Source: Candidatus Magasanikiibacteriota bacterium (GTDB taxonomy: Bacteria > Patescibacteriota > Patescibacteriia > Magasanikbacterales > GWA2-37-8). Taken from it: 64,000 nt of DNA. A program made the position numbers and the translations under genes. The stretch covers positions 28,648-92,647 of the forward strand of contig JAHFHX010000001.1 of NCBI GenBank assembly GCA_023246655.1, written 5' to 3'. Below, in pieces: positions 4,971 through 61,638 of the stretch. Position 1 is the stretch's first letter. Each line of letters begins with the position of its first letter. The notes under the pieces are model-generated. The model searched no databases, was not told where the DNA came from, and saw only the letters and a program-made list of their open reading frames with translations.

Positions 4971-5133
4971 CAATACTATTGTCGGAAGGCAATTTTTTTA
5001 GTAGTATAAATGTCGTGAGGAAAGGCGGAGAGGAGATAGGCTGCGTGGGCAACATGCAAAACCTATCTTCCTCTCCCAACCTCACATTGCAAGATACTCG
5101 GTAGAAGCCCGAGTTTTTTGTTTGCTCGGTTTT

Positions 5134-6393
5134 CTAATCCGTGAACACCACGCCCATGTTGAGGGCATCCTTGGCGCCGTGCACGAGTCTTCCGCGGCAG
5201 GCTGTCACCACCGCCTCGGCCGGGGAACGCTCGATGAAGTACACCACGAGGCGCGTGAAGCGCTCGTCCGTCGTGAGCTCCCCGTTCGCGTTGTAGTGCC
5301 GGAATTCCCGCTGGCGCCCCTTGAGCTCCCGCTGGAGGATGTAACGCCCACTGGAGCGCTGCGCTGCGTGGAGCGTGTCCTCAAACCTCGAATCATCCGA
5401 GAAGGCCACCCCCTTCGTCCCCGCCGAGATGGTCTCCTTGAGTACGTAGCGCTCCGTCAGGTTCGGGAGGGCGCCGTGCCGGGTCACGAGGTGGGTTTCC
5501 GGGAGATGCTGCCGGATCGTCTGGAGGGACTGCCCGCTCATCTGGGAACGGAGAATCGCTTCGATGTCGGCGTCATTCCCCGGGTTGCTGAGGATGGCGA
5601 GCAGGTTTTTCGAGCCCATGAAGGGCTTCGGCGGCATGAGGAACTTGATCTCGCCCTTCCGGTAGAGGTCGGCGAGGGCGTCGGTGAGGCGCGGGTTCTC
5701 GGTCATCACGGGGAAGTTCACGAGGGTACGCGTCGTCTCGCGCTCGCCGCGGATGATGAGATTCTGTCCGTCGACCGCCGTCTCGATCTCGTCGGCGACG
5801 ATGAGCTCGACCCCAGCGCTTCGGAGCGCCTGCCGGAGGATGTGAAACTCCGGGAGGTAGAAGCGCTCGCGGTGGCCGTAGAGGAAGACGAGCTGATCGA
5901 GGCCGCGCTTTTTGATCGCCGTCCCGAGACTCGTCCTGATCCCCGGGAGCGTGCTCGCGCCCGGGTTCACGGCCTCACGGATGGCGGCAAAGAGGGTCGC
6001 GTAGCCCATGGCCCGCCGGTTCATCGCGTCGATCTCGGCGATCCACAGGTGTCCCGCGGCGTCTTCCACGAAGTCAACCTTCACGATGAGCGGCGTCGTC
6101 GAGGGCTTCAGGAGCTGGAGCTCCCGGTGCGGCCGCGGCACCTCCATCGCGACAGCGTTCTTCAGGAGATCCCAGGTCTTGCCCGGGGCCAGCTCCCGCT
6201 GGTGGGCGATGGTCGCGATCCGCCCGAGGCCAGCGAGGCTCTCGGTGATCGCGGGGCCCAGGTGCTCGAGCTCCGTCCTCGCGCTCATGGGGAGCGGGAA
6301 GACATCCGGGGTGAGCAGGAAACCGTGCGTTTCCCGCCGTCCGCCGTCCCAGATACCCGATTCAATGACGATCTGTTCAATGAGCCTGTACAT
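5134..6393 (-). CDS. GC-rich (approx 62-65% GC) hypothetical enzyme, possibly ATP-grasp / glutathionylspermidine-synthase-like amidoligase; likely horizontally acquired
   Basis: 419-aa ORF with protein-like composition. The opposite-strand ORF 5122..6531 is an R/E/L-rich shadow. AAGGA sits ~6 nt before the ATG at 6393. The segment SKNLLAILSNPGN resembles the SNKxxLxxLW segment of GspS-like ATP-grasp proteins, but family assignment is tentative. A terminator hairpin follows at 5100-5130. Composition differs strongly from the AT-rich flanks. Confidence 0.55.
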   Translation of the reverse strand: MYRLIEQIVIESGIWDGGRRETHGFLLTPDVFPLPMSARTELEHLGPAITESLAGLGRIATIAHQRELAPGKTWDLLKNAVAMEVPRPHRELQLLKPSTTPLIVKVDFVEDAAGHLWIAEIDAMNRRAMGYATLFAAIREAVNPGASTLPGIRTSLGTAIKKRGLDQLVFLYGHRERFYLPEFHILRQALRSAGVELIVADEIETAVDGQNLIIRGERETTRTLVNFPVMTENPRLTDALADLYRKGEIKFLMPPKPFMGSKNLLAILSNPGNDADIEAILRSQMSGQSLQTIRQHLPETHLVTRHGALPNLTERYVLKETISAGTKGVAFSDDSRFEDTLHAAQRSSGRYILQRELKGRQREFRHYNANGELTTDERFTRLVVYFIERSPAEAVVTACRGRLVHGAKDALNMGVVFTD

Positions 6394-7053
6394 GGTTGTG
6401 TCCTTGCAGTGAGTTGTGGAAACGATTGTCGCTCGTTTCCTTGTTCGTCAGGTTTATACCCTGAAAGGTGTTCTCGTCACATTTCAAAGTACAAAAAACC
6501 CTGCGGTGGGCGCAGGGTAGAGTACAAATAAAGTGTACGCTAATAGTACCCGGCGCCAGTGGTGAGCCAGTTCCAGGCAAAATAATAAGTTGTGGGCAGT
6601 TGTGAGAACATACGTTATATAATAATACTGAGGATTGCAGATAGGTATTCTATGATAAATGTTGGTTGTTCATGAGGGCATTGCGGTTTTGTTATAAAAA
6701 ATAAACCGCCCGATGACTCGGGCGGTTGGTTTAGTAATTTTGTTATCAATTACAAAATTCACCACTCGAGCAAAGAGGGCAGGTGGTACGACCAAAACAG
6801 TGTAATAGAGTGGTGAGAAAATTTCATACAGTTTAAGAATAGTAGTATCGTAATGTTATTTATTTTTTCAGTCAAGCTAGAGTTGTTGATAACTTTATTT
6901 TAAGTATCAATAATGCCGTGGCGTTGAGAACCAATATTTTTTTGTGCCACCTGCTGCCAGTTGTTGGATATTTTATTTTTCCTTCGCAACATCACCAATA
7001 ATCTTGGCGATGTAGTAGAAGGGGAGAGGCGAAATTTTTTCACCTCTCCGCGG

Positions 7054-7127
7054 GGCCCCAGGGCGGATTTGAACCGCCGACTCGCAGATTTTCAGTCCGC
7101 TGCTCTGCCAGGCTGAGCTACCGGGGC
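7054..7127 (-). tRNA. tRNA-Phe (anticodon GAA)
   Basis: The reverse complement folds as a cloverleaf: acceptor GCCCCGG/CTGGGGC, D-arm GCTC-AGCCTGGCA-GAGC, anticodon stem GCGGA/TCTGC with loop CTGAAAA (anticodon GAA), T-arm GGCGG-TTCAAAT-CCGCC. CCA is not encoded. A hairpin at 7021-7050 follows the 3' end. Confidence 0.9.
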
Positions 7128-7187
7128 GGGAGACTTGGGGAGTCAGGGCCGCACGCGTTGCACGCGCGGCGCTGACATCCCGGGGGG

Positions 7188-7337
7188 TCACCGATCGGCG
7201 GCAGGAGGGGGCGCGACCGGACTCTTGCGCCGCCGCGGGGGCGGCAGTTCGAAGGGGTCCACGTGGAATTGTGGATCCTTCTTGATAGGGGGGTTCCCAG
7301 CGGGGGGCTGGGACGGGGGTGCCGGGGTGCGTTCCAT
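7188..7337 (-). CDS. small proline-rich ORF (49 aa) in GC-rich patch
   Basis: ATG 7337..7335 is preceded by AAGGAGA at a 7-nt spacing. Encodes MERTPAPPSQPPAGNPPIKKDPQFHVDPFELPPPRRRKSPVAPPPAADR. The listed 91/100-aa ORFs in other frames lack ribosome-binding sites. Speculative. Confidence 0.3.
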   Translation of the reverse strand: MERTPAPPSQPPAGNPPIKKDPQFHVDPFELPPPRRRKSPVAPPPAADR

Positions 7338-7914
7338 GCGCGTTTCTCCTTACCCCCTTGTAAGCGGGGGTTTGCCAAAGAGTCTCTCAGCACGAGAGGC
7401 GATTGACGCTAGTGCATCGCACGCTATCTCTTGCTGATTATTCTATTTGTCAAAATGAGTAATACGATATCCCGAGTGAGTCGGGATTGTTAACGTCGGC
7501 ATCGAGCTTCGTCCGCCTTTGGCGCACTCGCTCTCCGCTCGTCGTTAACAAAAAAACCGCCCGAAGCTCGGGCGGTTTGGAAATTTGTGTTATTTAGCAA
7601 CCACAAGTTCCACCGCCTGAGCCAGGGGAGGTAAAGTAGAAAAAGAAAACTTGATTTAAGCGGTTGGAATTCATAATATTTAAATGGTAGCACAGGTTGT
7701 TTCGGTAGTCAAATGGAACCTTGTGGATAAATAAAAATTGCGTTATACTGTAGGGTATGGAACTGGTACTAAGTTATTGTAATAAAGCCTCGTAGAGAGT
7801 GGTTTTCTTGCACCCAAACCCCGCTGTGGCGGGTCGTAATGGGCGCCGCGAAAATCACTCTCTATTTCGGCCCAAATTAGATAAAAATTAATGATAATTT
7901 AATACCTACCTTAT

Positions 7915-9075: not shown

Positions 9076-9214
9076 ATTTGAGGAAAAAAATATCCCGACT
9101 CAGTCGGGATATTTTTTGTTCCTTTATTGGCAGAAGGATACCAACAAAGGAACGGACGGAACGACGGACTCCGCGCCGAGTTGCGCGGTGTCTGCCGTTC
9201 CGTAGGTGGCGGGG

Positions 9215-9818: not shown

Positions 9819-10922
9819 GTGTTTAAACCATTTTCTTATCAATTTTACCGCACCACTAAAGAAGCTTGGGATGCTATGTATCAGGCTATTTTGGATGCGA
9901 CTAAATCTATTTATTGGGAAATTTATATTTTTATTGATGACGAGGCTGGAGGTAGGTTTATTGATGCGTTGTGTGACAAAGCTCGGGCTGGGGTTGAGGT
10001 AAAAATTGTGGTCGATGCTTTGGGTAGTTGGGGGTTGTCGAGCTTAGCGGAAGCGCGCCTAACCGGGGCGGGGGTAGAGGTACTTAAATATAATCGTTTG
10101 CACCCAGAATTAGCTTTGGGTCGTTGGTTTAATCGTCTGTGGCGGCGTAATCATCGTAAACTGCTTATTCTTGATGAAGAGGTCGCTTTTATTGGCGGAG
10201 TGAATGTCGAATCAAAATCTTTACTATGGAATGATTTATTTCTTAAACTTACGGGAGTCGTTGTTTGGCCACTCTTAAAGAGTTTTGCCAAAACATACGT
10301 GGCCGCGGGAGGTGATCGTCGCCGTGTGCGTCATTTGCGTCGATCACGTTTGCCGGAAGGGTTAGAAACGTTGCAGCGAAAAATTGAGTTTATTATTCAT
10401 TCGCCGTTTGGGAATAATCGTTCGCTGGTACGTAAGATGTATTACCGGAGTATTGCGGTGGCCAAAGAAAGTATTAATGTGTTGACGCCTTATTTTGTTC
10501 CAGATCGAGCCCTGATTCGATTGTTGACTCAAGCGCGTCGGCGGGGTGTAAAAATTAATTTGTTTTTACCGCAACGGCCGGATCACCAAATTATGGAATG
10601 GATTGCGCGCGCTTATTATGGCATTGTCCACCGTGCCGGAGTAAACATTTTTTTATCCAAAAAAATGAACCATGGCAAGGCCATGACCATTGATAATAAA
10701 TCCGGTTTTGTAGGGAGCTCTAACATAACCCCGCGAAGCTGGTTTATTAACGAAGAGGCTGGGGTATATTTTGACGATGCGGAGATGGCTGAGGAGTTGA
10801 ATACACTTTTTGCTCAATGGCAAACCGAAGCCGAGCCGCTTAATTTGGAACGCTGGAAAAAACGGGGGTGGCGGAGCAAAGCAAAGGAATGGTGGGCGAA
10901 GAAGATTGAGAAATATGTTTGA
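9819..10922 (+). CDS. cls: phospholipase D family protein / cardiolipin synthase-like
   Basis: Two HKD motifs: HRKLLILDEEVAFIGGVN and HGKAMTIDNKSGFVGSSN. The start is uncertain: GTG at 9819 or a downstream ATG giving MYQAIL. Confidence 0.85.
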   Translation: MFKPFSYQFYRTTKEAWDAMYQAILDATKSIYWEIYIFIDDEAGGRFIDALCDKARAGVEVKIVVDALGSWGLSSLAEARLTGAGVEVLKYNRLHPELALGRWFNRLWRRNHRKLLILDEEVAFIGGVNVESKSLLWNDLFLKLTGVVVWPLLKSFAKTYVAAGGDRRRVRHLRRSRLPEGLETLQRKIEFIIHSPFGNNRSLVRKMYYRSIAVAKESINVLTPYFVPDRALIRLLTQARRRGVKINLFLPQRPDHQIMEWIARAYYGIVHRAGVNIFLSKKMNHGKAMTIDNKSGFVGSSNITPRSWFINEEAGVYFDDAEMAEELNTLFAQWQTEAEPLNLERWKKRGWRSKAKEWWAKKIEKYV

Positions 10923-11044
10923 CGGGATAGCACGAATTCCCGACCCAGTCGGGACACGAATAACACAAATCAATTCGTGATATTCGTGGACCCGCCTCCC
11001 ACGCTAGCGCTAGCGTGGGAGGCGGGCCTCGAGCCCATTCATGT

Positions 11045-12349
11045 ATGTTAGAAGAAAAAAGATTACAATCAAATACTCCTTTAGCCGAGCGAATGAGACC
11101 TTGTTCATTTAACGAGTTTGTTGGTCAAGTCGATATAGTTGGGGAAGGGAAGCTCTTGCGCAAACTCATTGAGAATGATGAATTGTCCTCAATTATTTTT
11201 TGGGGTCCGCCGGGAGTAGGAAAGACTACGCTAGCGCGTATTATTGCAGAAGAGACGAAGGCGCGGTTTGTGGCGTTGTCCGGAGTGATGAGTGGGAAAG
11301 ATGATTTGCGGAAAGTGATTGAAGAAGCGCAAAGTGGAAAATCACAAATCCCAATTTCCAATGACCAAATAAATTCCAAATTCCGAGTTCCAAATCAAAC
11401 CCGGACCATTCTCTTTATTGATGAAATTCACCGCTGGAATAAGGCGCAGCAAGATGCACTGCTCCCCTATGTGGAACAGGGAATTGTGACGCTTATTGGC
11501 GCTACGACCGAGAATCCGTCGTTTGAGATTATTGGCGCGTTATTATCTCGATCGCGAGTGTTTATTTTGAAGTATTTGACGACCGAGAATATTGTTGTGC
11601 TCTTGAAGCGGGCGCTCGCCGATAAAGAAAGGGGATTAGGAAATTATAAGATTGAGATTGAGAATGAGACTTTGGAAATACTCGCGGAGCTTGCGGGTGG
11701 GGATGCGCGGGTGGCTTTGAATGGGCTCGAGTTGGCATTTAAATCGAAAGTCGGAAAGTCCGTAAAGTCTCTAAAGTCACCAATTGTAATTACAAATCAG
11801 GAAATAAAACAAGCGTTGCAGCGAACACATTTAGTGTTCGATAAAAAAGGTGAAGAATTTTATAACCTCATCTCCGCACTCCACAAATCCATGCGGGGGA
11901 GTGATCCCAATGCCTCGCTTTATTGGCTCGCACGAATGCTCGAGGGTGGTGCTGATCCTTTGTACGTCGCTCGTCGTATCCTGCGGTTTGCGAGTGAAGA
12001 TATTGGTATGGCCAATAGCGAAGCTATGATACAAGCGAATGCAGCGTATGATGCTTGCCACAAAATTGGGATGCCAGAGTGCACGGTGCATTTGGCTCAG
12101 GCAGTGGTATACTGTGCCAAATCCGCAAAATCAAATTTGTTATATAAAGCCTATCAGGCAGCAGCGAAGGATGCTCGAGAAACTTCTCAACTTGGGGTGC
12201 CAATTCATTTGCGCAACGCACCGGCAAAATTTATGGAGGAGATTGGATATGGAAAAGACTATAAGTATAATCCGGATTATGATGAACCGATAGAACAGGA
12301 TTATATGCCGGAGGAGTTGAGAGGAAGAAACTATCTTAAGAAGAAATAA
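11045..12349 (+). CDS. rarA: replication-associated recombination protein A (AAA+ ATPase RarA/MgsA)
   Basis: Walker A GPPGVGKTTLARIIA and Walker B ILFIDEIHR, plus the C-terminal MgsA helical domain. Start taken at ATG 11045 (MLEEKRLQSNTPLAERMRP). Confidence 0.88.
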   Translation: MLEEKRLQSNTPLAERMRPCSFNEFVGQVDIVGEGKLLRKLIENDELSSIIFWGPPGVGKTTLARIIAEETKARFVALSGVMSGKDDLRKVIEEAQSGKSQIPISNDQINSKFRVPNQTRTILFIDEIHRWNKAQQDALLPYVEQGIVTLIGATTENPSFEIIGALLSRSRVFILKYLTTENIVVLLKRALADKERGLGNYKIEIENETLEILAELAGGDARVALNGLELAFKSKVGKSVKSLKSPIVITNQEIKQALQRTHLVFDKKGEEFYNLISALHKSMRGSDPNASLYWLARMLEGGADPLYVARRILRFASEDIGMANSEAMIQANAAYDACHKIGMPECTVHLAQAVVYCAKSAKSNLLYKAYQAAAKDARETSQLGVPIHLRNAPAKFMEEIGYGKDYKYNPDYDEPIEQDYMPEELRGRNYLKKK

Positions 12350-12409
12350 CAAAATTCTAATGTACGAGTTATGCTAATTAACCTCTTTCATTTTAGCCAA
12401 AAAACACTT

Positions 12410-12546
12410 GTCATTCCGAATCCCCGTCGCAGGGGTGAGGAATCTCTGTCTCAATCAACCAACGACGGACAGAGAGATCCCTCCCGCCAGAGGCGGGCAG
12501 GCCTCGCGCTGTGTCCGCCTTTGGCGGAAGGCTTGCTCGGGATGAC
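12410..12546. repeat. GC-rich palindromic structured element with termini GTCATTCCGA...TCGGGATGAC, possibly a MITE-like repeat or ncRNA
   Basis: The outer inverted repeat encloses three internal hairpins (ATCTCTGTC/GACAGAGAT; CCCGCC-AGAG-GCGGG; CCGCC-TTTG-GCGG). It lies between convergent rarA and tsaE. Its termini resemble the GTCATTGCGAGG repeat family. The listed ORF 12371..12571 is probably not coding. Confidence 0.5.
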
Positions 12547-12640
12547 AAAACGGTATTTGAGCCAAATTTAGGGAAAATTAATTAGCACAACTCGTGCATT
12601 GGGGTTTAAACATTTTATTAGATATTAGGAATTAGGTGAA

Positions 12641-13657
12641 TTAGAAATCTTTAACGCTAATTTTTCTCTCCTCCCTCTCCCCATGCTCCAACGCAATCTT
12701 AATCACCCGTTTCCTTTTTAACAATCCCTCAATTTTCTCCGGCCATTCTACAATCGTCACGGTGTCTAACTGGCCCAAGTAGTCTTCTACGCCAATATTG
12801 AGCAATTCCTGCTCGTTTTTTAACCGGTACGTGTCGATATGTACCAACCTGTTAATTGTTAATTGTTTATTATTAATTTGGTACACATTCATTAGCGTAA
12901 ACGTCGGACTGGTAATTTCTTCTTGCACTCCTAACCCTGCCGCAATTCCTTTCACCAGGGTCGTTTTTCCCGCACCCAGTTCGCCGTAGAGACAGACAAC
13001 ATCCCCGGCTCGTAATTCGGTAGCGATTTTGGTTCCAACATTTCTAGTCTCTTGATCGGAGTGAGTGGTAAAAATTCTGCCATTTTTTTTCCGCTCTGAC
13101 CTTAAAACAAGTATAGCGATAGTGCCACTGATGCCAACCATTGCGAGAGGATAGATAGCGACAGCAAAATTCCATTGATTAATGGCAGCAAGGTTAAGCA
13201 AATTACCCAAGAAGAATAATGCCCAGGGCAAACGCCTCTCTCCTGTTGGATTGAGATATACTTTTTTTACCGTGGGGAGAGCTCCTAAACAATCAATGAA
13301 TAGATTCACCAGGAGCGCGGATAACGGTGAGCGAGTCGCTGCCCAGAGAGGGATACTTAGGGCACTCCCGGCAAGGCACCAGCGATCTAATCGTGCCCAG
13401 CCACCTTCACCATACCACAGTGACGCCAGAAACACAGCGCCGATACCAATGACATCTCCAAGCGGAACCCAAATGGTTTCATGTTGCGGTGTGGAGTAAT
13501 AATAACTGGAGAGTAAGAGTAATGATTCTAACATCCAAATTCCCCACCCTGCCCGATTCGGTCGCATTTGTTGGCGTACGGTAGCAAAAAAATAGGTGCT
13601 AAGCGCTATGAGATTCAAAATACCAGCTGCGATACCAATAATTGTTTTTGTTTCCAT
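12641..13657 (-). CDS. tsaE: tRNA threonylcarbamoyladenosine biosynthesis protein TsaE fused to an N-terminal ~190-aa multi-pass membrane domain
   Basis: The C-terminal half has the P-loop LYGELGAGKTTLVKGIAAGLGV, SPTFTLMNVY and HIDTYRL, all typical of TsaE/YjeE. The N-terminal half is hydrophobic with about six predicted TM segments. Confidence 0.75.
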   Translation of the reverse strand: METKTIIGIAAGILNLIALSTYFFATVRQQMRPNRAGWGIWMLESLLLLSSYYYSTPQHETIWVPLGDVIGIGAVFLASLWYGEGGWARLDRWCLAGSALSIPLWAATRSPLSALLVNLFIDCLGALPTVKKVYLNPTGERRLPWALFFLGNLLNLAAINQWNFAVAIYPLAMVGISGTIAILVLRSERKKNGRIFTTHSDQETRNVGTKIATELRAGDVVCLYGELGAGKTTLVKGIAAGLGVQEEITSPTFTLMNVYQINNKQLTINRLVHIDTYRLKNEQELLNIGVEDYLGQLDTVTIVEWPEKIEGLLKRKRVIKIALEHGEREERKISVKDF

Positions 13658-13742
13658 GCAAATTTTTGTAAAAGAATAAGAAATTTGTACCTTTTTAATA
13701 CAGAAAAGTCAAGTTTTAAATTTAATACTAGATAGCCGCAAT

Positions 13743-13836
13743 AAAAACATCCCGACTTAGTCGGGATGTTTTTAATTTTTTTCTCCTCGACTCTCCAGAA
13801 TCGTCCATTGCACAACTCTGGAGATTGGTCGAGGAG
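13743..13836. repeat. direct repeat copy A (terminator hairpin plus 55-bp hairpin unit)
   Basis: AAAAACATCCCGACTTAGTCGGGATGTTTTT followed by TTCTCCTCGACTCTCCAGAATCGTCCATTGCACAACTCTGGAGATTGGTCGAGGA. The 55-bp part is identical to the copy at 14672-14726. Confidence 0.85.
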
Positions 13837-14621: not shown

Positions 14622-14640
14622 TGATAATTTCAGAAGAACA

Positions 14641-14726
14641 AAAAACATCCCCATTGAATCGGGATGTTTTTTTCTCCTCGACTCTCCAGAATCGTCCATT
14701 GCACAACTCTGGAGATTGGTCGAGGA
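14641..14726. repeat. direct repeat copy B
   Basis: AAAAACATCCCCATTGAATCGGGATGTTTTTTT plus the same 55-bp unit as copy A. Confidence 0.85.
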
Positions 14727-15447: not shown

Positions 15448-15451
15448 CACT

Positions 15452-15563
15452 GTCATTGCGAGGAGTGAACTTCGCAGTGAACGACGAAGCAATCCCCCTT
15501 TTTGTGAGAAAGTTGGTGGCGCAATAAGGGGGATTGCCGCGTCGCTTCGCTCCTCGCAATGAC
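15452..15563. repeat. palindromic MITE/REP-like element, copy 1
   Basis: GTCATTGCGAGGAG...CGACGAAGCAATCCCCC / GGGGGATTGCCGCGTCG...CTCCTCGCAATGAC, a long imperfect hairpin between gatC and gatA. Copies occur at 59169-59283 (full) and 21746-21793 (partial). Confidence 0.85.
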
Positions 15564-15570
15564 AAATACT

Positions 15571-20856: not shown

Positions 20857-21022
20857 AACAAAATCCCAAATTTCAAGTATCAAATTTCAAATAAGCACCA
20901 AATCCAAAATTTTAAATTTTGAGATTTGAAAATGGTGATTTATTTTGGATTTGGAATTTGTTATTTGGGATTTTTTAGTTGTGTATAATTTCTCTCTTGA
21001 CAGTATTGGTAGCCGTGGTATA

Positions 21023-21741: not shown

Positions 21742-21745
21742 TTGC

Positions 21746-21793
21746 GTCATTGCGAGGAAGACGATTCGCATCGGCTGACTTGGCAATCCCCCT
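21746..21793. repeat. partial (left-arm) copy of the GTCATTGCGAGGA palindromic element
   Basis: GTCATTGCGAGGAAGACGATTCGCATCG...GCAATCCCCC with no right arm. It sits between hrcA and grpE. Confidence 0.7.
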
Positions 21794-32586: not shown

Positions 32587-32613
32587 ATAATCAGTAGAAA
32601 AAAACATCCCGAC

Positions 32614-33024
32614 TTAGTCGGGATGTTTTTGATTATCTAAAATTTTATTCACCTCCGCATCCGCCTCTTTGTTCCCGGCACGCATGGTGTGGCGATACGT
32701 TACTTTTTTAAATTGCGTGGCAGTGTTGTAGACCTGCATAAATAATTTTTGGAGTGTTGGCTCTTTCACTTTGTACTCTCCTCGCATTTGTTTTACGATC
32801 AGTTCGCTATCGAGTACGCAGTGAACTTCGGTCGCACCAAGCTCTTTAGCTTTTTTGAGAGCAGAAATAAGGGCCGAGTACTCAGCAAAGTTATTAGTTT
32901 GGTGCCCCAAATATTCGCCATAGTGCGCCAGCACAACGCCCGCCTCATTTTTGATAACAATGCCAGCGGCAGCTGGCCCCGGGTTGCCACGCGCTCCGCC
33001 ATCGGTGTGGGTGATTAATTTCAT
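32614..33024 (-). CDS. rnhA: ribonuclease HI
   Basis: THTDGGARGNPGPAAAGIVIK and the catalytic E/D/D/H pattern (EYSALISAL, HCVLDSELIVKQ, GNKEADAEVNKIL), ~136 aa. Confidence 0.88.
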   Translation of the reverse strand: MKLITHTDGGARGNPGPAAAGIVIKNEAGVVLAHYGEYLGHQTNNFAEYSALISALKKAKELGATEVHCVLDSELIVKQMRGEYKVKEPTLQKLFMQVYNTATQFKKVTYRHTMRAGNKEADAEVNKILDNQKHPD

Positions 33025-54476: not shown

Positions 54477-56099
54477 TTATAACCCTTCAGCCTCATCAAT
54501 CCCTGCCGGTACATTCCAGAGCCGAAGCCAACGGCGCTTGAGGCTGGCGTGCAGATGTATCATTTCATGTACCTTTAGGCAGTAACAAATTATTCCGTAC
54601 ACCAAAAGCCCTACCGTACCAGAAATAAACCCTTGCAACAGAATACCCCAAAAGCGGTTAAGATCAAGTACCCCAGCGAGTGGAAATTTGAGGAATTGGA
54701 TAGTGAGCCCCATCGCGCAGGCGGCGATAGCAACCCTATAGAACATGTGGAATAATTTTCCTTCCTCAATCGAACCTGATTCTATCCGCAGAGCAATAAT
54801 GAGCATGAGAGCGTTAAGTATTGCGCCAATTGAACTCGCGAGAGCAAGCCCGGCCACGCCAAGCGGTCTCATTAGGATGAGGGCAGCAATAATTGCTATC
54901 AGTTCAGCAATGACGCCAAGAGTAAAGGGAGTTTTGGTATTGGAAAGAGCGTAGAACGCTCGGGCGTAGAGTGGAACAAGAGACTGGGCAAAGAGTCCGA
55001 GCGCAAAGAATGCTAGTGTGTTGGCAGTGGCGATGGTAGCTCGCCAATCAAAGGCGCCAGTACCATAAAAAACACGTACAATTTGTGCACGCAAGAGCAG
55101 AATAATTATTGCAATTGGAATAATAAGAAACAGGATTTGCCGTGTCGTGGCGCTGAGGTGTTCAATAAAACCAGCTCCATTTTTTTTTGCTACCATGGTT
55201 GAAAGTACTGGAAATACTGCCAACGCAAATGGTATGCCAATAATACCAATTGGCACGCCCTGTAAATTGTTCGCTAAATTATAAACTGTTATGCTCCCCG
55301 CCGGCAGGAAGGATGCTAATATGGTAACCACCACGACATTCAGTTGGGTGATAGCAAGGCCAAGCGTGCGTGGAATCATCAATTTACCAATGGTGAGCGT
55401 GTTGGTGTCTTTAAGATTAAATGACCAGTGCCAGCGAAAACCGCTGGCATAGGCCCCATAACATTGAATCCCAGCGTGGAGGAGAGCTCCCAGTACTACC
55501 CCGGCTGCAAGACCTTGAATCCCGAGGGCTGATTTTGTAAGGAGGGTGGCTCCGAGAATAATTCCAATGTTATAAAAGATTGGTGCAATGGAATAGAGAA
55601 TAAATTGTTTCAGGGATTGTAAAATGCCCCCTAGCACCATGGAGATTCCTAAGAGAACCGGAGAGAGGAACATGATGCGAGTGAAGGAAAGTACGAGTTG
55701 TTGGTTGGCGCCCGAGAATCCTGGTGCAATAATTTTGGATAATGGTGCGGTAAAAATTATGCCGAGTCCGAATAAAACCACTAGGGCTAAACCAACAATA
55801 TTAATAATATTATTAGCTAACCGCCATGCTGGAGCTTTATTATCATTGGTATAAAAAAGTTTGGTGAAGGTAGGAATAAACCCTGCGGTTAGTGCTCCTA
55901 CAATGAGTAAATTATAAATTAAGTCAGGAATTTTAAATGCCGCGTAGTAAGCATCCAGTACTGCTCCGGCCCCAAAATAATGTGCAAAAACACGATCGCG
56001 GACTACACCAACCAGGCGACTCGTCAACGTCGCCACTGCAATAACGATCGCAGCGCCGGTAATTGATTTAGATTCAGCAGTTAATAAGCGTGAAATCAT
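54477..56099 (-). CDS. murJ: lipid II flippase MurJ (MviN family)
   Basis: N-terminus AAIVIAVATLTSRLVGVVRDRVFAHYFGAGAVLDAYYAAFKIPDL is a MurJ signature. About 14 TM segments. Confidence 0.88.
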   Translation of the reverse strand: MISRLLTAESKSITGAAIVIAVATLTSRLVGVVRDRVFAHYFGAGAVLDAYYAAFKIPDLIYNLLIVGALTAGFIPTFTKLFYTNDNKAPAWRLANNIINIVGLALVVLFGLGIIFTAPLSKIIAPGFSGANQQLVLSFTRIMFLSPVLLGISMVLGGILQSLKQFILYSIAPIFYNIGIILGATLLTKSALGIQGLAAGVVLGALLHAGIQCYGAYASGFRWHWSFNLKDTNTLTIGKLMIPRTLGLAITQLNVVVVTILASFLPAGSITVYNLANNLQGVPIGIIGIPFALAVFPVLSTMVAKKNGAGFIEHLSATTRQILFLIIPIAIIILLLRAQIVRVFYGTGAFDWRATIATANTLAFFALGLFAQSLVPLYARAFYALSNTKTPFTLGVIAELIAIIAALILMRPLGVAGLALASSIGAILNALMLIIALRIESGSIEEGKLFHMFYRVAIAACAMGLTIQFLKFPLAGVLDLNRFWGILLQGFISGTVGLLVYGIICYCLKVHEMIHLHASLKRRWLRLWNVPAGIDEAEGL

Positions 56100-56839
56100 G
56101 GTGATGGTGGGGCAAAATTGAGTGTGAGTAACGCATACGCCGTACCAATTTTTTGCTCTTCGGTGCGGGCAATGGTGAGTGTCCCCGCAGTGTCATTCTT
56201 GTTAAAGGTAATTTGTCTGCTGTTGCTATTTTGATTCTCTTCGGAAATTGTATATCCTGCTTTGCGCAACTCCTTTTTATAGTACGACATAATAAACCCT
56301 GGCTCAGCATCAAGATTTTTCCATTCAATTTCTATACTATCACGCGGGTCACCAACCGGTGTTTGAATTAACTGCCAGATTCGTTTAAGGTAGTGAGATT
56401 GCTCTTCTGATGGCGTTGGTTCTGGTTCGGACGCTGTGCTGTAGTTGGAATTAGTACGTAGTAATAGTGGTGATAAAATAATTTTTGGGAAGAAAGCGGC
56501 TAATTCAAGACCGCGGCTTTTATATTTTCCCGAGATAAATGTTATTTGTTCAATATTGTCTTTATCATAGAGTGGAATATCGATTGGAAAATGAGCGGGA
56601 AGTGTTTTTATGGTTTTTGGACCTGGGCCAATAGCCAACCACACAGCGATAATGATTGCAATTACAAAAAGTATCACACTACTGCAACCAGTGAGACAGG
56701 TGCGACGGAAGCCAGAATGATGTTTGCTTAATTCTTCAATTGGTGGTTCAACAATTTCGATTTTGTCGATATTCGGACGACGCATAGATATAATATAAAT
56801 CGACGGAATTACAGATACAAAAAAATTACCTCCGTACAC
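56096..56839 (-). CDS. hypothetical membrane-anchored protein (247 aa)
   Basis: One TM segment then an extracytoplasmic domain. ATGA overlap with murJ suggests the same operon. Confidence 0.45.
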   Translation of the reverse strand: MYGGNFFVSVIPSIYIISMRRPNIDKIEIVEPPIEELSKHHSGFRRTCLTGCSSVILFVIAIIIAVWLAIGPGPKTIKTLPAHFPIDIPLYDKDNIEQITFISGKYKSRGLELAAFFPKIILSPLLLRTNSNYSTASEPEPTPSEEQSHYLKRIWQLIQTPVGDPRDSIEIEWKNLDAEPGFIMSYYKKELRKAGYTISEENQNSNSRQITFNKNDTAGTLTIARTEEQKIGTAYALLTLNFAPPSP

Positions 56840-56987
56840 CCGGCTTGTTTCTTGTAGTATAGCAATAAAGTTCGTTTTTGCCTAGCCTAGACTATATTGC
56901 TCTTTTGTTAAGCGACTGATATACTTAACACAGATTATGCGGATTACAATCTGTGTAATCCTCACAAAAATGTGTGTAATCTGTGTT

Positions 56988-58457
56988 ATGCGTATTACTT
57001 TTTTCGGTGCCGCCGGTGAGGTAACTGGTTCTTGTAGTCTGCTTGAAGTCGGTCCCTATAGAATTCTAATTGATTGCGGGATGTTTCAGGGCAGCCTTGA
57101 AATGGAAGCTATGAATCATCAGGCATTACCTTTTGATCCTAAGAGTTTGACCCATGTTTTTATTACCCATGCGCATCTTGACCATACCGGCCGGCTGCCG
57201 CTCTTGGTTAAGCAGGGGTATGTTGGCTATTTTTATGCCACTGCCCCCACCATGGAGCTCGCGGAATTGGTCATGCGGGACGCTCATGGCATCATGTTAT
57301 ATGATCATCAACATTTTGGTCGGCCAATTCTATATGGCGAAGAAGATATTGCTGGTGTAATGACCCAGTTTAAGACGGTGGAGTATGGGGAAGAGATGGA
57401 ATTCCCCGCTTGGGCGGGGAAGGCCTCGCAGCCAGGGGTGGGTGAGACCATTGAGTCGCCACTTGCCACTGCCACGCAACGACCTCACCCACCCCTACCC
57501 CGCCCAAGCGGGGAATCGAACGTTGCCGAAAGTGTCACCGTCACCTTCCACGACGTCGGCCACATTTTTGGTTCGGCCTTTATTGAGATCAGAGCCGAAG
57601 GCAAAAAAATTGTTTTCTCCGGAGATGTCGGCAACGTTCATGTGCCAATTTTACGCGATACAGAACCACTCCCGTCTAACCTTGATCTCTTGGTGTGTGA
57701 GTCCACGTACGGCGATCGCCTGCATGAAGTGCAGGCCACGCGTGAAGAAATGATTGAACAAGCGATCCTTAACGCCGTTAAAGGTGGGGGAGTGCTTATG
57801 ATTCCGTCATTTGCTTTGGAACGGACCCAAGAACTTATTTATGAACTTAACAAACTCATTGATCACAAACATAAACTAACCAACGTCCCCATTTATCTGG
57901 ACAGCCCGCTCGCCATTGATGCTACCAAAGTGTATCGCAAGTACCCACAATATTATGACGAAAAAGCCGCCGAATATTTTAAAGAGGGTGATGATATTTT
58001 TACCTTTCCTAATCTCATTACCACTTATTCTCGGGAAGAGTCAATGAAAATTAATCACACGCCGGGCCCCAAAGTTATTATCGCTGGCGCCGGCATGATG
58101 AACGGCGGCCGCATCCTCCATCACGCTCTTCATTATTTATCTGATGCCCGTAACACCATTCTTTTCATCGGCTATCAATCACCCAGCACCCTCGGCCGAC
58201 AAATTATGGAAGGCCACTCTCCGGTCACGGTGCACGGTGAACGCGTAGTCGTTAAATGCCAAATAAAAGTTATGGGCGCGCTCTCGGCGCACGGCGATCA
58301 AAATAAACTGGTGAGTTGGATTAGCGCCGGTCGGCCCAAAAGAGTTATCTTCAATCATGGGGAACCCGGGCCCTCTGCGGCGGTGGCGAAAAGGTTGCAG
58401 CAAGAATGCGGTGTTGAAGCTGCTCCAGCAGTGCTCAATTCAACCGTTATTGTTTGA
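56988..58457 (+). CDS. MBL-fold metallo-hydrolase, RNA-metabolising beta-CASP nuclease (RNase J-like)
   Basis: MRITFFGAAGEVTGSC and HAHLDHTGRLP (HxHxDH), plus beta-CASP motifs. Contains an in-frame 38-codon GC-rich insert at 57402-57515. The start codon is embedded in the conserved upstream motif. Confidence 0.8.
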   Translation: MRITFFGAAGEVTGSCSLLEVGPYRILIDCGMFQGSLEMEAMNHQALPFDPKSLTHVFITHAHLDHTGRLPLLVKQGYVGYFYATAPTMELAELVMRDAHGIMLYDHQHFGRPILYGEEDIAGVMTQFKTVEYGEEMEFPAWAGKASQPGVGETIESPLATATQRPHPPLPRPSGESNVAESVTVTFHDVGHIFGSAFIEIRAEGKKIVFSGDVGNVHVPILRDTEPLPSNLDLLVCESTYGDRLHEVQATREEMIEQAILNAVKGGGVLMIPSFALERTQELIYELNKLIDHKHKLTNVPIYLDSPLAIDATKVYRKYPQYYDEKAAEYFKEGDDIFTFPNLITTYSREESMKINHTPGPKVIIAGAGMMNGGRILHHALHYLSDARNTILFIGYQSPSTLGRQIMEGHSPVTVHGERVVVKCQIKVMGALSAHGDQNKLVSWISAGRPKRVIFNHGEPGPSAAVAKRLQQECGVEAAPAVLNSTVIV

Positions 58458-58649
58458 TTCAATTTCTGGTATGTATTTCACAAAGCTTAAAAATATTTTG
58501 CAGAAAAATAAACTATTTTTTATTTTGGTGATCGCTAAGCATTTTAGATAATAAACGTTTTTAAAATAACTTATCCACAATCCCGACTCAGTCGGGATTT
58601 TTTGTTGTACATTAGCCAAAATTACGTAGATATTTTTTGGTGTAAAGTG

Positions 58650-58678
58650 TTGACCAATGTAGTTAAGTGGTGTAAAAT
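58650..58678 (+). promoter_or_regulatory. sigma-70-like promoter of the dcw cluster (TTGACC-N17-TAAAAT)
   Basis: -35 TTGACC at 58650-58655, a 17-bp spacer, and -10 TAAAAT at 58673-58678. GTGG(T/G)G direct repeats at 58667, 58687 and 58697 resemble MraZ operator repeats. Confidence 0.6.
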
Positions 58679-58734
58679 GGAAGTAGGTGGGGAAAGGTGG
58701 TGAAAATGCTTGTCCCACTTTTTCTTCCCTCAGT

Positions 58735-59166
58735 ATGTTTATCGGTGAATACAGTCACAATCTTGACGACAAAGGCCGCTTGGCCATCCCCATTAAATTC
58801 CGTCAGGCTTTAAAAAAAGGGGCGGTAGTAACGCGGGGACTTGATAGTTGCCTTTTTTTATACACGTGTGATGAGTGGCAAAAACTCGCCGAGAAATTAG
58901 CCGCGCTTCCAATTAGCCAAGCCAACAGTCGAGCGTTTGCCCGCCTCATGCTTGCGGGTGCTATGGATGTGGAAGTTGATAAACAAGGTCGCGTTATCCT
59001 CCCGGAATACTTACGGCATTTTGCTGGGTTAAAAAAGGGCGTGATTGTCGCCGGTCTCTATAGTCGCTTAGAAATTTGGGATGAAACCAAGTGGGGGATG
59101 TATAAAGGTCAGACTGAGGCCGAGAGTGGAAATATTGCTGAGCGGATGGGGGAGTTGGGTGTGTAG
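58735..59166 (+). CDS. mraZ: transcriptional regulator MraZ
   Basis: MFIGEYSHNLDDKGRLAIPIKFR, and a second DxxxR-type repeat VDKQGRVILP. Confidence 0.88.
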   Translation: MFIGEYSHNLDDKGRLAIPIKFRQALKKGAVVTRGLDSCLFLYTCDEWQKLAEKLAALPISQANSRAFARLMLAGAMDVEVDKQGRVILPEYLRHFAGLKKGVIVAGLYSRLEIWDETKWGMYKGQTEAESGNIAERMGELGV

Positions 59167-59168
59167 CT

Positions 59169-59283
59169 GTCATTGCGAGGAGGAGCTTGGCAGCGACGAC
59201 GAAGCAATCTCCCCGTTTAAGAAATTTTTAGACAGGGGGATTGCCGCGTCGTCCCGATGCGAATCGGGACTCCTCGCAATGAC
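59169..59283. repeat. palindromic MITE/REP-like element, copy 3 (full length)
   Basis: GTCATTGCGAGGAGGAGC...CGACGAAGCAATCTCCCC ... GGGGGATTGCCGCGTCG...GGACTCCTCGCAATGAC. It sits between mraZ and rsmH. Confidence 0.85.
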
Positions 59284-59292
59284 ACAAAAAAT

Positions 59293-60228: not shown

Positions 60229-60292
60229 AAAGTAGAGAGTAGAGAGTAGTAAGAAACGTTACCACTCTTTACTCCTTACTTACTACTCACTC

Positions 60293-60661
60293 ATGCAAAT
60301 TATGTCTCTTCGTCTTCGCCTGAAATACAAAATGAATTCAATTCGCCATTTTACCTCTTCTTTTTATTTGCCGTCTTGGATGACCGGTACCGCGATGCGG
60401 GTTATGCTGAGTTTAGTAGTTGTTGTATTAGGTGCTGCCTACGTTATGGAGACTAATACGCTCGCAACCAGTGGCTATGAAATTCATTCATTAGAGCAAC
60501 GGATTAGTTTTTTACATAGTGAGCTGCAGCGTTTGCATACTACCGTGGCCGAGGCTCAATCTATGGCCAGTATTCAGAAGCGTTTGCCAGAGATACAGAT
60601 GGTGGCGGTGACCGATATTATATATCTTAAACTCAATAATGAAGTGGCGGTAGCGAAATGA
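60293..60661 (+). CDS. FtsL-like cell division protein
   Basis: Position after rsmH in the dcw cluster. Single TM segment MRVMLSLVVVVLGAAYVM followed by a coiled-coil. Call is by context. Confidence 0.5.
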   Translation: MQIMSLRLRLKYKMNSIRHFTSSFYLPSWMTGTAMRVMLSLVVVVLGAAYVMETNTLATSGYEIHSLEQRISFLHSELQRLHTTVAEAQSMASIQKRLPEIQMVAVTDIIYLKLNNEVAVAK

Positions 60662-60721
60662 TGCCTGTTGACCTTGCAAGAATAATTATGTACCGTAGAT
60701 TTGAGGAGTAAAATTTGACGT

Positions 60722-61099: not shown

Positions 61100-61209
61100 G
61101 GGCACTAAGGCGCTCATTATTATCGCGATTACGACGCGTTTTTTTTATTTTTTTTATGTGCTATAATAGAAACGTGAATCAATAAGCACGAATTGTCAGG
61201 AATGGAGTC

Positions 61210-61620: not shown

Positions 61621-61638
61621 AGTCCATGTTGTAGCGAT

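What the first reader, a model, noticed from the sequence alone, without database searches (positions are those of the whole stretch)
12410..12546. GC-rich, highly structured 137-bp element between convergent rarA and tsaE
The outer inverted repeat GTCATTCCGA/TCGGGATGAC encloses three hairpins. Its termini resemble the GTCATTGCGAGG/CCTCGCAATGAC family found at 15452, 21746 and 59169. A 14-mer, GTCCGCCTTTGGCG, is shared with the region at 7511-7524. It could be a decayed family member or a small structured RNA. The overlapping 66-aa ORF (12371..12571) is probably spurious.
Basis: seen in the sequence. Interest (0 to 1): 0.5.

Follow-up and report, generated by a model that had tools for sequence, protein, structure and literature searches.

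The report
Hairpin-repeat pair inside a palindromic repeat
The GC-rich structured element is real, but it is a non-coding palindromic repeat of a family already known from Neisseria and Rickettsia, here found in an ultra-small groundwater-type bacterium, and not a new RNA gene or protein.

Summary
A 137-bp GC-rich core at 12410-12546 has the stated inverted termini and three hairpins, and folds far better than shuffles.

- **Extent.** The real unit is larger: about 260-300 bp (12352-12648) with AT-rich inverted arms.
- **Copy number.** A second, about 98% identical copy lies 53 kb away in the same genome, so the element is a dispersed repeat.
- **Not a gene.** The 66-aa ORF has no homolog except that second copy. 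Rfam finds nothing. Relatives that keep rarA and tsaE adjacent lack the element.
- **Anatomy.** The core is a head-to-head pair of hairpin modules with the signature (C/T)GTC-AT-xyz-GA...x'y'z'-AT-C. The window holds seven such modules against 0.25 expected. The xyz triplet covaries with its partner across eight types.
- **Family.** This is the signature of CGTC-tagged REPs (Neisseria dRS3/NTS, Rickettsia RPE-4/6), now called Ssn-related motifs. Small GIY-YIG Ssn nucleases bind these as single-stranded DNA and cut beside them.
- **Support from relatives.** In related CPR genomes I found Ssn-like genes flanked on both sides by such modules.
- **Gaps.** No Ssn gene occurs in the about 66 kb of this genome available. 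The published SRM search pattern does not match these enlarged modules.

Verdict: a new variant of a known repeat kind, of modest interest.

The parts
12352..12648 (.). Copy 1 of the full composite palindromic repeat (about 297 bp). It fills the rarA-tsaE spacer and overlaps the tsaE stop codon.
   Evidence: Copy 2 lies at L003 9873-10131, equivalent to window position 65421 onward. It is 97.95% identical over 244 nt without gaps. The whole region folds as one long hairpin, z = -9.4.
12352..12381 (.). Left AT-rich arm of the composite.
   Evidence: Inverted repeat I3, 30 nt and 83% complementary to 12578-12607. It is conserved in copy 2.
12578..12607 (.). Right AT-rich arm of the composite.
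12636..12648 (.). Outermost 13-nt terminal repeat GTGAATTAGAAAT. It overlaps the last two codons and the stop codon of tsaE.
   Evidence: The same 13-mer is present at both ends of copy 2 (inverted at the left end) and at this end of copy 1. There is only one occurrence in the window.
12409..12444 (+). Left hairpin module, type TCC: T-GTC tag, ATTCC-GA-[CCCC hairpin]-GA-GGAAT stem, then C.
   Evidence: Signature scan. A module flanking a GIY-YIG gene in L043 has the same architecture.
12443..12475 (.). Central hairpin (CTCTGTCTC...GACAGAGAG) between the two modules.
   Evidence: The centre is variable in sequence across family members.
12476..12547 (-). Right hairpin module, type CCC, read on the minus strand: T-GTC tag, ATCCC...GGGAT stem, then C. 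Its interior is enlarged.
12484..12527 (.). Nested GC-rich hairpin inside the right module. It contains the 14-mer shared with 7511-7524.
12371..12571 (+). 66-aa ORF, judged spurious.
   Evidence: No Pfam family. No homolog other than the repeat's second copy. Not found in 185,579 species genomes.
11015..12349 (+). rarA/mgsA. The composite starts 2 nt after its stop codon.
   Evidence: Pfam MgsA_C 3e-58.
12641..13657 (-). tsaE with an N-terminal membrane extension, convergent with rarA.
   Evidence: Pfam TsaE 7e-41 on residues 199-333.
15451..15564 (.). Related head-to-head pair, type TGC/TGC. It starts 3 nt after a stop codon.
21745..21788 (+). Related single module, type TGC, with a CGTC tag. 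It starts 3 nt after a stop codon.
59168..59284 (.). Related head-to-head pair, type TGC/TGC, filling the mraZ-rsmH spacer.

Best explanation
**What it is.** The 137-bp GC-rich element is a head-to-head pair of two hairpin modules of the (C/T)GTC-tagged palindromic repeat superfamily. That superfamily comprises the CGTC-REPs: Neisseria dRS3/NTS and Rickettsia RPE-4/6, recently renamed Ssn-related motifs. A variable central hairpin separates the two modules. The pair forms the core of a non-coding palindromic repeat of about 260-300 bp with AT-rich inverted ends, present at least twice in this Candidatus Magasanikbacteria (CPR/Patescibacteria) genome. It is a selfish, miniature-transposon-like repeat, not a protein gene or a dedicated small-RNA gene.

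**How it most likely works.** When the DNA is single-stranded (during replication, repair or DNA uptake), each module folds into its own hairpin.
- Shown in the literature for other species: small single-domain GIY-YIG nucleases of the Ssn family bind exactly this kind of hairpin. Binding depends on the C just 3' of the stem and cutting on the GTC just 5' of it. They cut the single strand a few nucleotides upstream and do not act on double-stranded DNA or RNA.
- Read from the sequence: in the pair the two tags point outward on opposite strands. This is the geometry of the ends of the repeat-ssn-repeat unit with the gene left out.
- Inferred, not shown: this genome has a cognate Ssn nuclease, that nuclease (or another enzyme) copies the element to new sites, and the element also serves as an RNA hairpin at the 3' ends of rarA and tsaE.
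For: **A dispersed repeat.**
- A second copy lies in the same genome. L003 1-8452 equals window 55549-64000 at 99.98%. The repeat at L003 9873-10116 is 97.95% identical to window 12352-12595.
- A metagenome contig of the same strain breaks 6 nt into the core.

**Absent from relatives.** It is missing from the rarA-tsaE spacer of relatives that keep the synteny: L006, L014 and L016 have spacers of 72-165 bp at 19-30% GC.

**Signature.** Exactly seven modules with the full signature Y-GTC-AT-xyz-SR...rc(xyz)-AT-C occur in the window, against 0.25 expected.

**Covariation.**
- Across 1.48 Mb of fetched loci, the triplet after GTCAT has its exact complement followed by ATC within 70 nt at 27% of sites, against 1.3% for wrong triplets.
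- The 8x8 type table is diagonal. The non-TCC rows are independent of my search pattern.

**Same architecture elsewhere.**
- L016 7602-7697 and L005 4785-4873 share the termini GTCATTCCGA...CTCGGGATGAC.

**Literature.**
- PMC3733652 defines CGTC/TGTC-tagged REPs: stems starting with A-T and T-A pairs, mostly head-to-head dimers, including dRS3 and RPE-4/6, and with no known transposase.
- PMC11893778 shows that Ssn GIY-YIG nucleases bind and cut these motifs as single-stranded DNA and that ssn genes are flanked by them.

**Ssn-like genes in CPR loci.**
- In CPR loci fetched only through RarA, two 96-97-aa GIY-YIG genes (Pfam E = 5e-15) are each flanked within 70 nt on both sides by inverted modules (L043, L056).
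- The L043 module has the same nested-hairpin build as the window's left module.
- Four more Ssn-like genes sit within 300 nt of modules in the metagenome loci.
Against: - No Ssn/GIY-YIG homolog occurs in the about 66 kb of this genome that I could read, that is the window plus L003 (HMM search). The rest of the genome was not available.
- The published degenerate SRM pattern has 0 hits in the window. It does not match these modules, nor the module flanking the L043 gene.
- The modules are larger (36 and 72 nt, with nested hairpins) than the 8-9-bp-stem, 4-5-nt-loop CGTC-REPs described in 2013.
- Only two copies of the composite are known, and no clear target-site duplication was seen.
- Transposition by Ssn has not been demonstrated in any organism. 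The Ssn paper offers it only as a hypothesis.
- Folded alone, the full strand prefers the outer stem over the two local hairpins by 9 kcal/mol (RNA parameters) or 5.6 kcal/mol (DNA parameters).
- No Ssn-like gene was found in 879 kb of IMG/VR loci carrying the module.
Confidence: 0.7

Rival explanations
1. Its selected role is at the RNA level. It would act as a two-way transcription terminator, insulator or 3'-end mRNA stabiliser between the convergent rarA and tsaE genes.
For: - It starts 2 nt after the rarA stop codon and overlaps the tsaE stop codon.
- All five family elements seen in this genome begin 0-3 nt after the stop codon of an upstream gene.
- The predicted RNA hairpin is very stable.
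- A T-rich stretch follows the long hairpin in copy 1.
- The 2013 REP paper notes that such repeats lie mostly downstream of genes and may act as RNA elements.
Against: - The consensus terminator scan finds no terminator formed by the GC-rich core. The only site it reports in the spacer is a 5-bp stem in the right AT-rich arm (12585-12597, minus strand), and the count for the whole region is at chance level.
- Relatives with the same gene pair manage with 72-165-bp AT-rich spacers and no such element.
- Copy 2 lies between co-directional genes.
- The conserved features (GTC tag, C after the stem, strand-specific orientation) are the ones recognised on single-stranded DNA, not features of terminators.
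- This role is compatible with the main explanation as a side effect.
Confidence: 0.15
2. It is a target or attachment site for a site-specific recombinase or an IS110-type element rather than a unit that moves itself. Neisseria dRS3 repeats serve this way for filamentous prophage integration (own knowledge, not tested here).
For: The family relation to dRS3 is supported by the literature. Head-to-head hairpin pairs are typical targets of such enzymes (own knowledge).
Against: - No recombinase, prophage or IS lies next to either copy.
- The whole 244-nt unit, including its AT-rich arms, is duplicated. That is expected of something copied, not of a site that is merely used.
Confidence: 0.07
3. 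It is a small structured non-coding RNA gene.
For: Strong fold z-scores on the + strand. The GC content is far above the 44.7% background.
Against: - No Rfam family, even at E <= 10.
- The promoter scan of 11800-13200 found four consensus matches, about the chance number (2.4 +/- 1.5). None lies just upstream of the element on the + strand. The one site inside the spacer (12612-12640) is on the minus strand, downstream of tsaE.
- It is multi-copy within the genome and absent at the syntenic site of relatives.
- Family conservation is confined to module stems and tags.
Confidence: 0.05
4. The 66-aa ORF (12371-12571) encodes a real small protein.
For: The ORF is intact in both copies.
Against: - No Pfam family.
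- No homolog in 5.8 billion proteins other than the second copy, and none in 185,579 species genomes.
- The single difference between the copies is non-synonymous (L45V).
- ORFs of 45 aa are open in two other frames across the same GC-rich DNA.
Confidence: 0.02

Closest known systems
Ssn-related motifs (SRM) / Neisseria NTS with GIY-YIG Ssn nucleases (Chenal et al. 2025, Nat Commun 16:2388, PMC11893778)
   Same: - The tag and stem logic match: (C/T)GTC, then a stem starting AT, then C directly after the stem. NTS is CGTC-ATTCCCGCG-MAV-GCGGGAAT-C, and the window's left module is TGTC-ATTCC-GA-[hairpin]-GA-GGAAT-C.
- The modules are oriented and occur as inverted pairs.
- In CPR loci, Ssn-like 96-97-aa GIY-YIG genes are flanked by such modules. 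The L056 flanks differ from the Neisseria NTS consensus at only 2 of 28 positions.
   Different: - The published SRM search pattern does not match the window modules.
- The modules carry nested hairpins (36 and 72 nt).
- The pair is embedded in AT-rich inverted arms that are copied with it.
- No ssn gene was found in the part of this genome available.
- The host is a Patescibacteria lineage, which the main text of that paper does not mention.
CGTC-tagged REPs, including Neisseria dRS3 and Rickettsia RPE-4/RPE-6 (Di Nocera et al. 2013, BMC Genomics 14:522, PMC3733652)
   Same: - An unpaired CGTC/TGTC tag at one end.
- The first two stem pairs are A-T and T-A.
- Head-to-head dimers predominate, often as heterodimers.
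- They lie mostly just downstream of genes.
- Occasional in-frame intragenic copies occur, as seen here in L016 tsaE.
   Different: - The described families have 8-9-bp stems and 4-5-nt loops. Here the stem is 5 bp, then a GA/GA internal loop, then a second hairpin.
- Copy density is low: 7 modules in 64 kb.
REPINs/BIMEs with RAYT transposases (Bertels and Rainey 2011, PMC3116915)
   Same: - Two inverted short hairpin repeats with a spacer form a larger hairpin that behaves as the replicating unit.
- A single-copy nuclease gene flanked by the same repeats is the presumed mobiliser.
   Different: - The tag is GTC, not GTAG.
- The associated enzyme is a GIY-YIG nuclease, not an IS200-type tyrosine (HUH) transposase.
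Bacterial MITEs (e.g. Correia, Nezha, RUP)
   Same: - The composite is about 260-300 bp, non-coding and multi-copy.
- It has terminal inverted repeats, sits next to genes and folds into a long hairpin.
   Different: - No parent insertion sequence with the same ends was found.
- No clear target-site duplication was seen.
- The core is built from REP-like modules.

Membership tests
Ssn-related motif (SRM/NTS) | GTC tag directly 5' of the palindrome and C directly 3' of it. In the published work the tag is needed for cleavage and the C for binding. | tested here: met
   Both modules of the element, and all seven window modules, carry Y-GTC before and C after the stem.
Ssn-related motif (SRM/NTS) | Matches the published degenerate search pattern HGTCWYN(0-2)YYVSBRHN(0-5)WNVSBRGN(0-2)RNCYNB. 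| tested here: not met
   There are 0 hits in the window. The pattern matches NTS and the L056 module, but not the window modules, the canonical GTCATTCCGAGCGAAGCGAGGAATC form, or the module flanking the L043 GIY-YIG gene.
Ssn-related motif (SRM/NTS) | A cognate ssn (single-domain GIY-YIG, about 94 aa) gene in the same genome, typically flanked by the motif. | tested here: inconclusive
   An HMM built from five Ssn-like proteins finds none in the window or L003, about 66 kb in all. Related CPR genomes do have such genes flanked by modules (L043, L056).
Ssn-related motif (SRM/NTS) | Bound and cut by Ssn as single-stranded DNA only, on one strand only. | not testable with these tools
   This needs purified enzyme and oligonucleotides.
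CGTC-tagged REP superfamily | Terminal CGTC (or TGTC/CCTC) tag not involved in pairing, and a stem whose first two pairs are A-T and T-A. | tested here: met
   There is a TGTC tag at both ends of the element, with stems ATTCC/GGAAT and ATCCC/GGGAT.
CGTC-tagged REP superfamily | Stem of 8-9 bp with a loop of 4-5 nt. | tested here: not met
   The stem is 5 bp, then a GA/GA internal loop, then a further 4-bp (left module) or about 19-bp (right module) hairpin.
CGTC-tagged REP superfamily | Predominantly organised as head-to-head dimers. | tested here: met
   Three of the four window elements are head-to-head pairs. In 62 of 81 metagenome cases where any NNNATGAC terminus lay downstream of a left module, that terminus had its own local partner.
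CGTC-tagged REP superfamily | Compensatory variation that keeps the hairpin. | tested here: met
   The type table is diagonal over 8 triplet types: 27% correct partner against 1.3% wrong partner.
REP/REPIN-RAYT | GTAG tag at the 5' end of the palindrome. | tested here: not met
   The tag is (C/T)GTC.
REP/REPIN-RAYT | Associated IS200-like tyrosine transposase (RAYT). | not tested
   No systematic scan for Y1 transposases was run. The ORFs found between inverted modules were GIY-YIG genes or ordinary genes.
MITE | Terminal inverted repeats, small size, no coding capacity and several copies. | tested here: met
   There are arms of 30 nt at 83% complementarity plus a 13-nt outer repeat, two copies and a spurious ORF.
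MITE | Target-site duplication and a parent IS with the same ends. | tested here: inconclusive
   There is a possible TCT at copy 2 and none at copy 1. No other occurrence of the ends was found in the window.
Intrinsic terminator | GC-rich stem-loop followed directly by a T run. | tested here: not met
   The scan of 11800-13200 reports no site at the GC-rich core, only a weak 5-bp stem in the right AT arm on the minus strand.
Any Rfam RNA family | Covariance-model match at the gathering score. | tested here: not met
   The window yields only two tRNAs. The best sub-threshold hits score 15-18 bits against gathering scores of 35-128.

The most novel reading that the evidence does not exclude
The 260-300-bp composite, an Ssn-motif pair carried inside AT-rich inverted arms, is an active miniature transposon of Patescibacteria. 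A GIY-YIG Ssn nuclease would mobilise it through a single-stranded DNA intermediate. This would be the first case where Ssn acts as a transposase-like enzyme, and it would explain in-frame colonisation of essential genes such as tsaE in a sister lineage (L016).
Probability: 0.15. Interest if true: 0.6.

Novelty: new variant of a known kind. Interest (0 to 1): 0.33.

Why it matters
- **Explains local sequence features.** The result accounts for a class of GC-rich islands, spurious small ORFs and assembly breaks in genomes of ultra-small CPR bacteria.
- **Extends a known system.** It places the recently characterised Ssn-nuclease and hairpin-repeat system in a superphylum with streamlined genomes. 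In the paper library I searched, no paper links these repeats to Patescibacteria.
- **Possible link to DNA uptake.** Ssn modulates natural transformation in Neisseria. Patescibacteria take up DNA (own knowledge). The repeats could therefore bear on how these organisms handle incoming single-stranded DNA.
- **Limits of the published pattern.** That pattern misses a very abundant environmental form of the motif, GTCATTCCGAGCGAAGCGAGGAATC, and its nested-hairpin variants.
- **For the specific finding.** The element is an ordinary member of a repeat superfamily rather than a new RNA or protein gene.

Tried and rejected
**Searches that found nothing.**
- Rfam at the gathering score and at E <= 10.
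- Homology search with the 66-aa ORF: only itself and the second copy.
- The ORF against 185,579 species genomes.
- Exact look-ups of RarA as first delimited and of P0001: not on record.
- A flank-plus-core junction 23-mer in JGI metagenomes: 0 hits.
- A core 24-mer in IMG/VR: 0 hits.
- Literature searches for the sequence strings: only chance primer matches.
- Two general GIY-YIG plus repeat searches: unhelpful.
- NCBIfam and PDB sequence searches with the CPR Ssn-like proteins: no hits. Their assignment to the Ssn family therefore rests on the Pfam GIY-YIG match, their size, their single domain and their flanking repeats.
- Ssn HMM against 100 IMG/VR loci carrying the module: none.

**Leads that stayed inconclusive.**
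- Target-site duplication.
- A 54-nt, 78% match of the left arm in L018, which looks like AT-rich chance similarity.
- A relation between the 14-mer at 7511-7524 and the element, which is not separable from chance.

**A corrected error.** My first module regex was wrong and found almost nothing. I corrected it.

**Caveats.**
- The metagenome and IMG/VR loci were selected by the left TCC-type module, so counts for that type are by construction.
- The statement that relatives lack the element rests on species only 65-74% identical in RarA.

Full report
**1. The observation.** The sequence at 12410-12546 is as described. GTCATTCCGA and TCGGGATGAC form an inverted repeat with one G-T position. They enclose three hairpins. 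As RNA the + strand folds at -78.4 kcal/mol against -50.9 +/- 4.2 for dinucleotide shuffles (z = -6.5). The - strand is weaker (z = -4.3). The 14-mer shared with 7511-7524 is exact but of marginal weight (blastn E = 0.056). rarA and tsaE are confirmed by Pfam. The window is 44.7% G+C and the element is one of its GC-rich islands.

**2. The real unit is larger and is repeated.** AT-rich arms at 12352-12381 and 12578-12607 are 83% complementary over 30 nt. The whole rarA-tsaE spacer folds as one long hairpin (-120.6 kcal/mol, z = -9.4).

- The 66-aa ORF has a single relative in 5.8 billion proteins, a one-residue variant (L45V).
- That variant is encoded at a different locus, downstream of clpB and a glycosyltransferase gene on contig L003.
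- L003 1-8452 is 99.98% identical to window 55549-64000, so it is the same organism. Its repeat copy at 9873-10116 is 97.95% identical to window 12352-12595 without gaps. Copy 2 therefore lies about 1.4 kb beyond the window's end, 53 kb from copy 1.
- A 13-mer, GTGAATTAGAAAT, marks both ends of copy 2 (inverted on the left) and the right end of copy 1 at 12636-12648, where it overlaps the tsaE stop codon. Copy 1 carries about 29 extra nucleotides in its right arm.
- A metagenome contig of the same strain ends 6 nt into the GC-rich core, as expected at a repeat.

**3. What it is not.**

- Rfam gives only two tRNAs for the window and nothing credible for the spacer.
- The ORF has no Pfam family and no relative in 185,579 species genomes.
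- RarA places the organism among Candidatus Magasanikbacteria (65-74% identity to the best MAGs).
- In three relatives that keep rarA and tsaE convergent and adjacent (L006, L014, L016), the spacer is 72-165 bp at 19-30% G+C and has no match to the element.
- The element is therefore lineage-specific DNA, not a conserved regulatory RNA.

**4. Anatomy of the family.** Comparison with other CPR loci shows a module: (C/T)GTC, AT, a variable triplet xyz, GA, a variable interior, the complement of xyz, AT, then C.

- The element is a head-to-head pair of such modules. The left one is 12409-12444 on the + strand (ATTCC/GGAAT). The right one is 12476-12547 on the - strand (ATCCC/GGGAT, with an enlarged interior). 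A central hairpin lies between them.
- The T/C difference between the two termini is explained by each terminus pairing with its own inner partner.
- The GTCATTGCGAGG elements at 15451-15564, 21745-21788 and 59168-59284 are the same module with ATTGC/GCAAT.
- With the full signature there are exactly seven modules in the window, against 0.25 in Markov-shuffled windows.
- Elements with the same termini and build occur in other Magasanikbacteria (L016 7602-7697, L005 4785-4873).
- The commonest environmental form is an 80-125-bp palindrome: GTCATTCCGAGCGAAGCGAGGAATCTC...GAGATTCCTCGCTTCGCTCGGAATGAC.

**5. Covariation.** I tested pairing without assuming it. Over 1.48 Mb of fetched loci, 27% of GTCAT-xyz-SR sites have the exact complement of xyz followed by ATC within 70 nt, against 1.3% for the 63 wrong triplets. 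The table over eight types (TCC, CCC, TGC, CCT, TCT, TTC, GTC, GCC) is strongly diagonal. The TCC row is inflated by my search pattern. The other rows are independent of it.

Of 81 metagenome cases with a left TCC module and some NNNATGAC terminus downstream, 62 have a right-hand module with its own perfect local partner. In 41 of these the right module is of a different type from the left. Selection therefore acts on each terminal hairpin rather than on the outer stem. Thermodynamically, however, the isolated full strand prefers the outer stem by 9 kcal/mol (RNA parameters) or 5.6 kcal/mol (DNA parameters). Both folds are available to a pair.

**6. Link to known systems.**

- Di Nocera et al. 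2013 (PMC3733652) defined CGTC-tagged REPs. The tag is often TGTC. Stems begin with A-T and T-A pairs. They occur mostly as head-to-head dimers and lie downstream of genes, with some intragenic copies. The family includes Neisseria dRS3 and Rickettsia RPE-4/RPE-6. No dedicated transposase was known.
- Chenal et al. 2025 (PMC11893778) showed that the Neisseria form (NTS, CGTCATTCCCGCGMAVGCGGGAATCYRG) and related motifs (SRM) are bound by small single-domain GIY-YIG nucleases (Ssn).
- These nucleases act only on single-stranded DNA and only on one strand, cutting a few nucleotides upstream. The GTC is needed for cutting and the C after the palindrome for binding.
- ssn genes are typically flanked by the motif in an IS-like arrangement. 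The role outside Neisseria is open, and mobility is only a hypothesis.

I found the same association independently, before reading that paper. In CPR loci fetched only through RarA, two 96-97-aa GIY-YIG genes (Pfam E = 5e-15) are each flanked within 70 nt on both sides by inverted modules (L043, L056). The L056 flanks differ from the Neisseria NTS consensus at 2 of 28 positions. The L043 left module (GTCATTTC-GA-CCCGCCCGGGGCGGGG-A-GAAATC) has the same nested build as the window's left module. Four more Ssn-like genes lie within 300 nt of modules in the metagenome loci.

**7. Mechanism, shown and inferred.**

- Shown here: the element is a repeated, non-coding, head-to-head pair of tagged hairpin modules with family-wide compensatory variation.
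- Shown in the literature for other species: such hairpins are substrates of Ssn nucleases on single-stranded DNA.
- Read from the sequence: in the pair, the two tags face outward on opposite strands, like the ends of the repeat-ssn-repeat unit without the gene.
- Inferred: this genome has a cognate Ssn, that enzyme or another copies the composite, and the element also acts as an RNA hairpin at gene ends.
- Against the inference: no Ssn homolog in the about 66 kb of this genome I could read, only two copies known, no clear target-site duplication, and the published SRM pattern does not match these modules.

**8. Rivals.**

- A terminator or mRNA-stabiliser role fits the position. All five family elements seen in this genome start 0-3 nt after a stop codon. 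But it does not explain the tag, the strand logic, the second copy between co-directional genes or the absence in relatives. The terminator scan is negative for the core.
- A small-RNA gene and a real 66-aa protein are both poorly supported (sections 2 and 3).
- A role as a recombinase target, as for dRS3 in Neisseria (own knowledge), cannot be excluded, but no such gene is nearby.

**9. Novelty and weight.**

- The kind is known. This is a variant, with nested-hairpin modules outside the published size range and search pattern, a pair embedded in co-copied AT-rich inverted arms, and a Patescibacteria host.
- A specialist in bacterial repeats would not be very surprised.
- The useful points are the extension to CPR genomes, the evidence that the published pattern misses an abundant environmental form, and the explanation of spurious ORFs and assembly breaks.

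**10. Caveats.**

- Module detection used my own regular expressions.
- The loci from metagenomes and IMG/VR were chosen by the left module.
- The empty-site comparison uses distant relatives.
- Assignment of the CPR GIY-YIG proteins to the Ssn family rests on Pfam, size and flanks. NCBIfam and PDB sequence searches gave nothing.

Noticed in passing
L016 7395-7928 (minus strand), Candidatus Magasanikbacteria RIFOXYC2_FULL_42_28: A module pair (7602-7697) plus a further half-module sits inside the tsaE coding sequence, and the reading frame stays open. It adds about 40 residues (IVIPNERGD...AFGLARND) that seven orthologs lack, at a surface loop of TsaE. This is the behaviour known from Rickettsia palindromic elements, here in a CPR genome and in a conserved tRNA-modification (t6A) gene.
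   Followed up: yes
window 57401-57516, inside ORF 56937-58457 (+): A GC-rich palindrome lies in frame inside a beta-CASP/metallo-beta-lactamase RNase gene (residues 155-194, EFPAWAGK...). It reads ATTCCCCGCTTGGGCGGGGAA...CCCCGCCCAAGCGGGGAAT with 96% complementary 23-nt arms. The Pfam Lactamase_B_6 match stops at residue 156, where the insert begins. There is no GTC tag, so it may belong to another repeat family.
   Followed up: partly
L056 1752-2108 (Candidatus Moraniibacteriota) and L043 3907-4310: These are complete repeat-GIY-YIG-repeat units in CPR genomes. The L056 flanks (TGTCATTCCCGCGTAGGCGGGAATCTAG) are almost the Neisseria NTS consensus. This suggests the unit moves between very distant phyla.
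   Followed up: partly
window 9085-9117, 13742-13774, 32600-32630; variants at 14633-14679 and 7461-7479: A near-identical perfect palindrome, AAAAACATCCCGACT/AGTCGGGATGTTTTT, recurs at gene ends. It looks like a shared two-way terminator. Its stem ATCCCGA/TCGGGAT resembles the CCC-type module stem but lacks the GTC tag.
   Followed up: no
L087 383-640: A JGI metagenome contig holds a tandem array of modules. Five CCT-type modules lie at a 33-bp period, followed by two inverted TCT-type and one TCC-type module: 11 modules in 1.7 kb. This resembles the clustered NIME/BIME arrangement.
   Followed up: no
window 5133-7395: A stretch reaching 78-81% G+C sits in a 44.7% G+C window. It has long ORFs open on both strands (5122-6531 + and 5134-6393 -), and the minus-strand ORF has no Pfam family. 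tRNA-Phe (7052-7127) lies inside the stretch. It may be foreign DNA inserted at the tRNA gene or an assembly chimera. It remains unexplained.
   Followed up: partly
window 7479-7540: A GC-rich segment is bracketed by inverted GTTAACG..CGTTAAC and followed by a terminator-like hairpin (7547-7577). It holds the 14-mer shared with the element. The relation to the element cannot be separated from chance.
   Followed up: partly
window 20860-20974 and L016 7237-7385: Long AT-rich palindromes are built from AAATCC/AAATTTC-like units. One is in the window. A similar one fills the rarA-tsaE spacer of L016. They may form a second, AT-rich repeat family of Magasanikbacteria.
   Followed up: no
window 12641-13657 (-): TsaE here is 338 aa. 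The TsaE domain covers only residues 199-333, and the N-terminal 190 residues or so look like a multi-pass membrane segment. This is an unusual fusion.
   Followed up: no
L204-L283 and further loci (IMG/VR): The TCC-type module occurs in 100 stretches of contigs classed as viral, several with 3-5 copies each. No Ssn-like gene was found in those 879 kb.
   Followed up: partly
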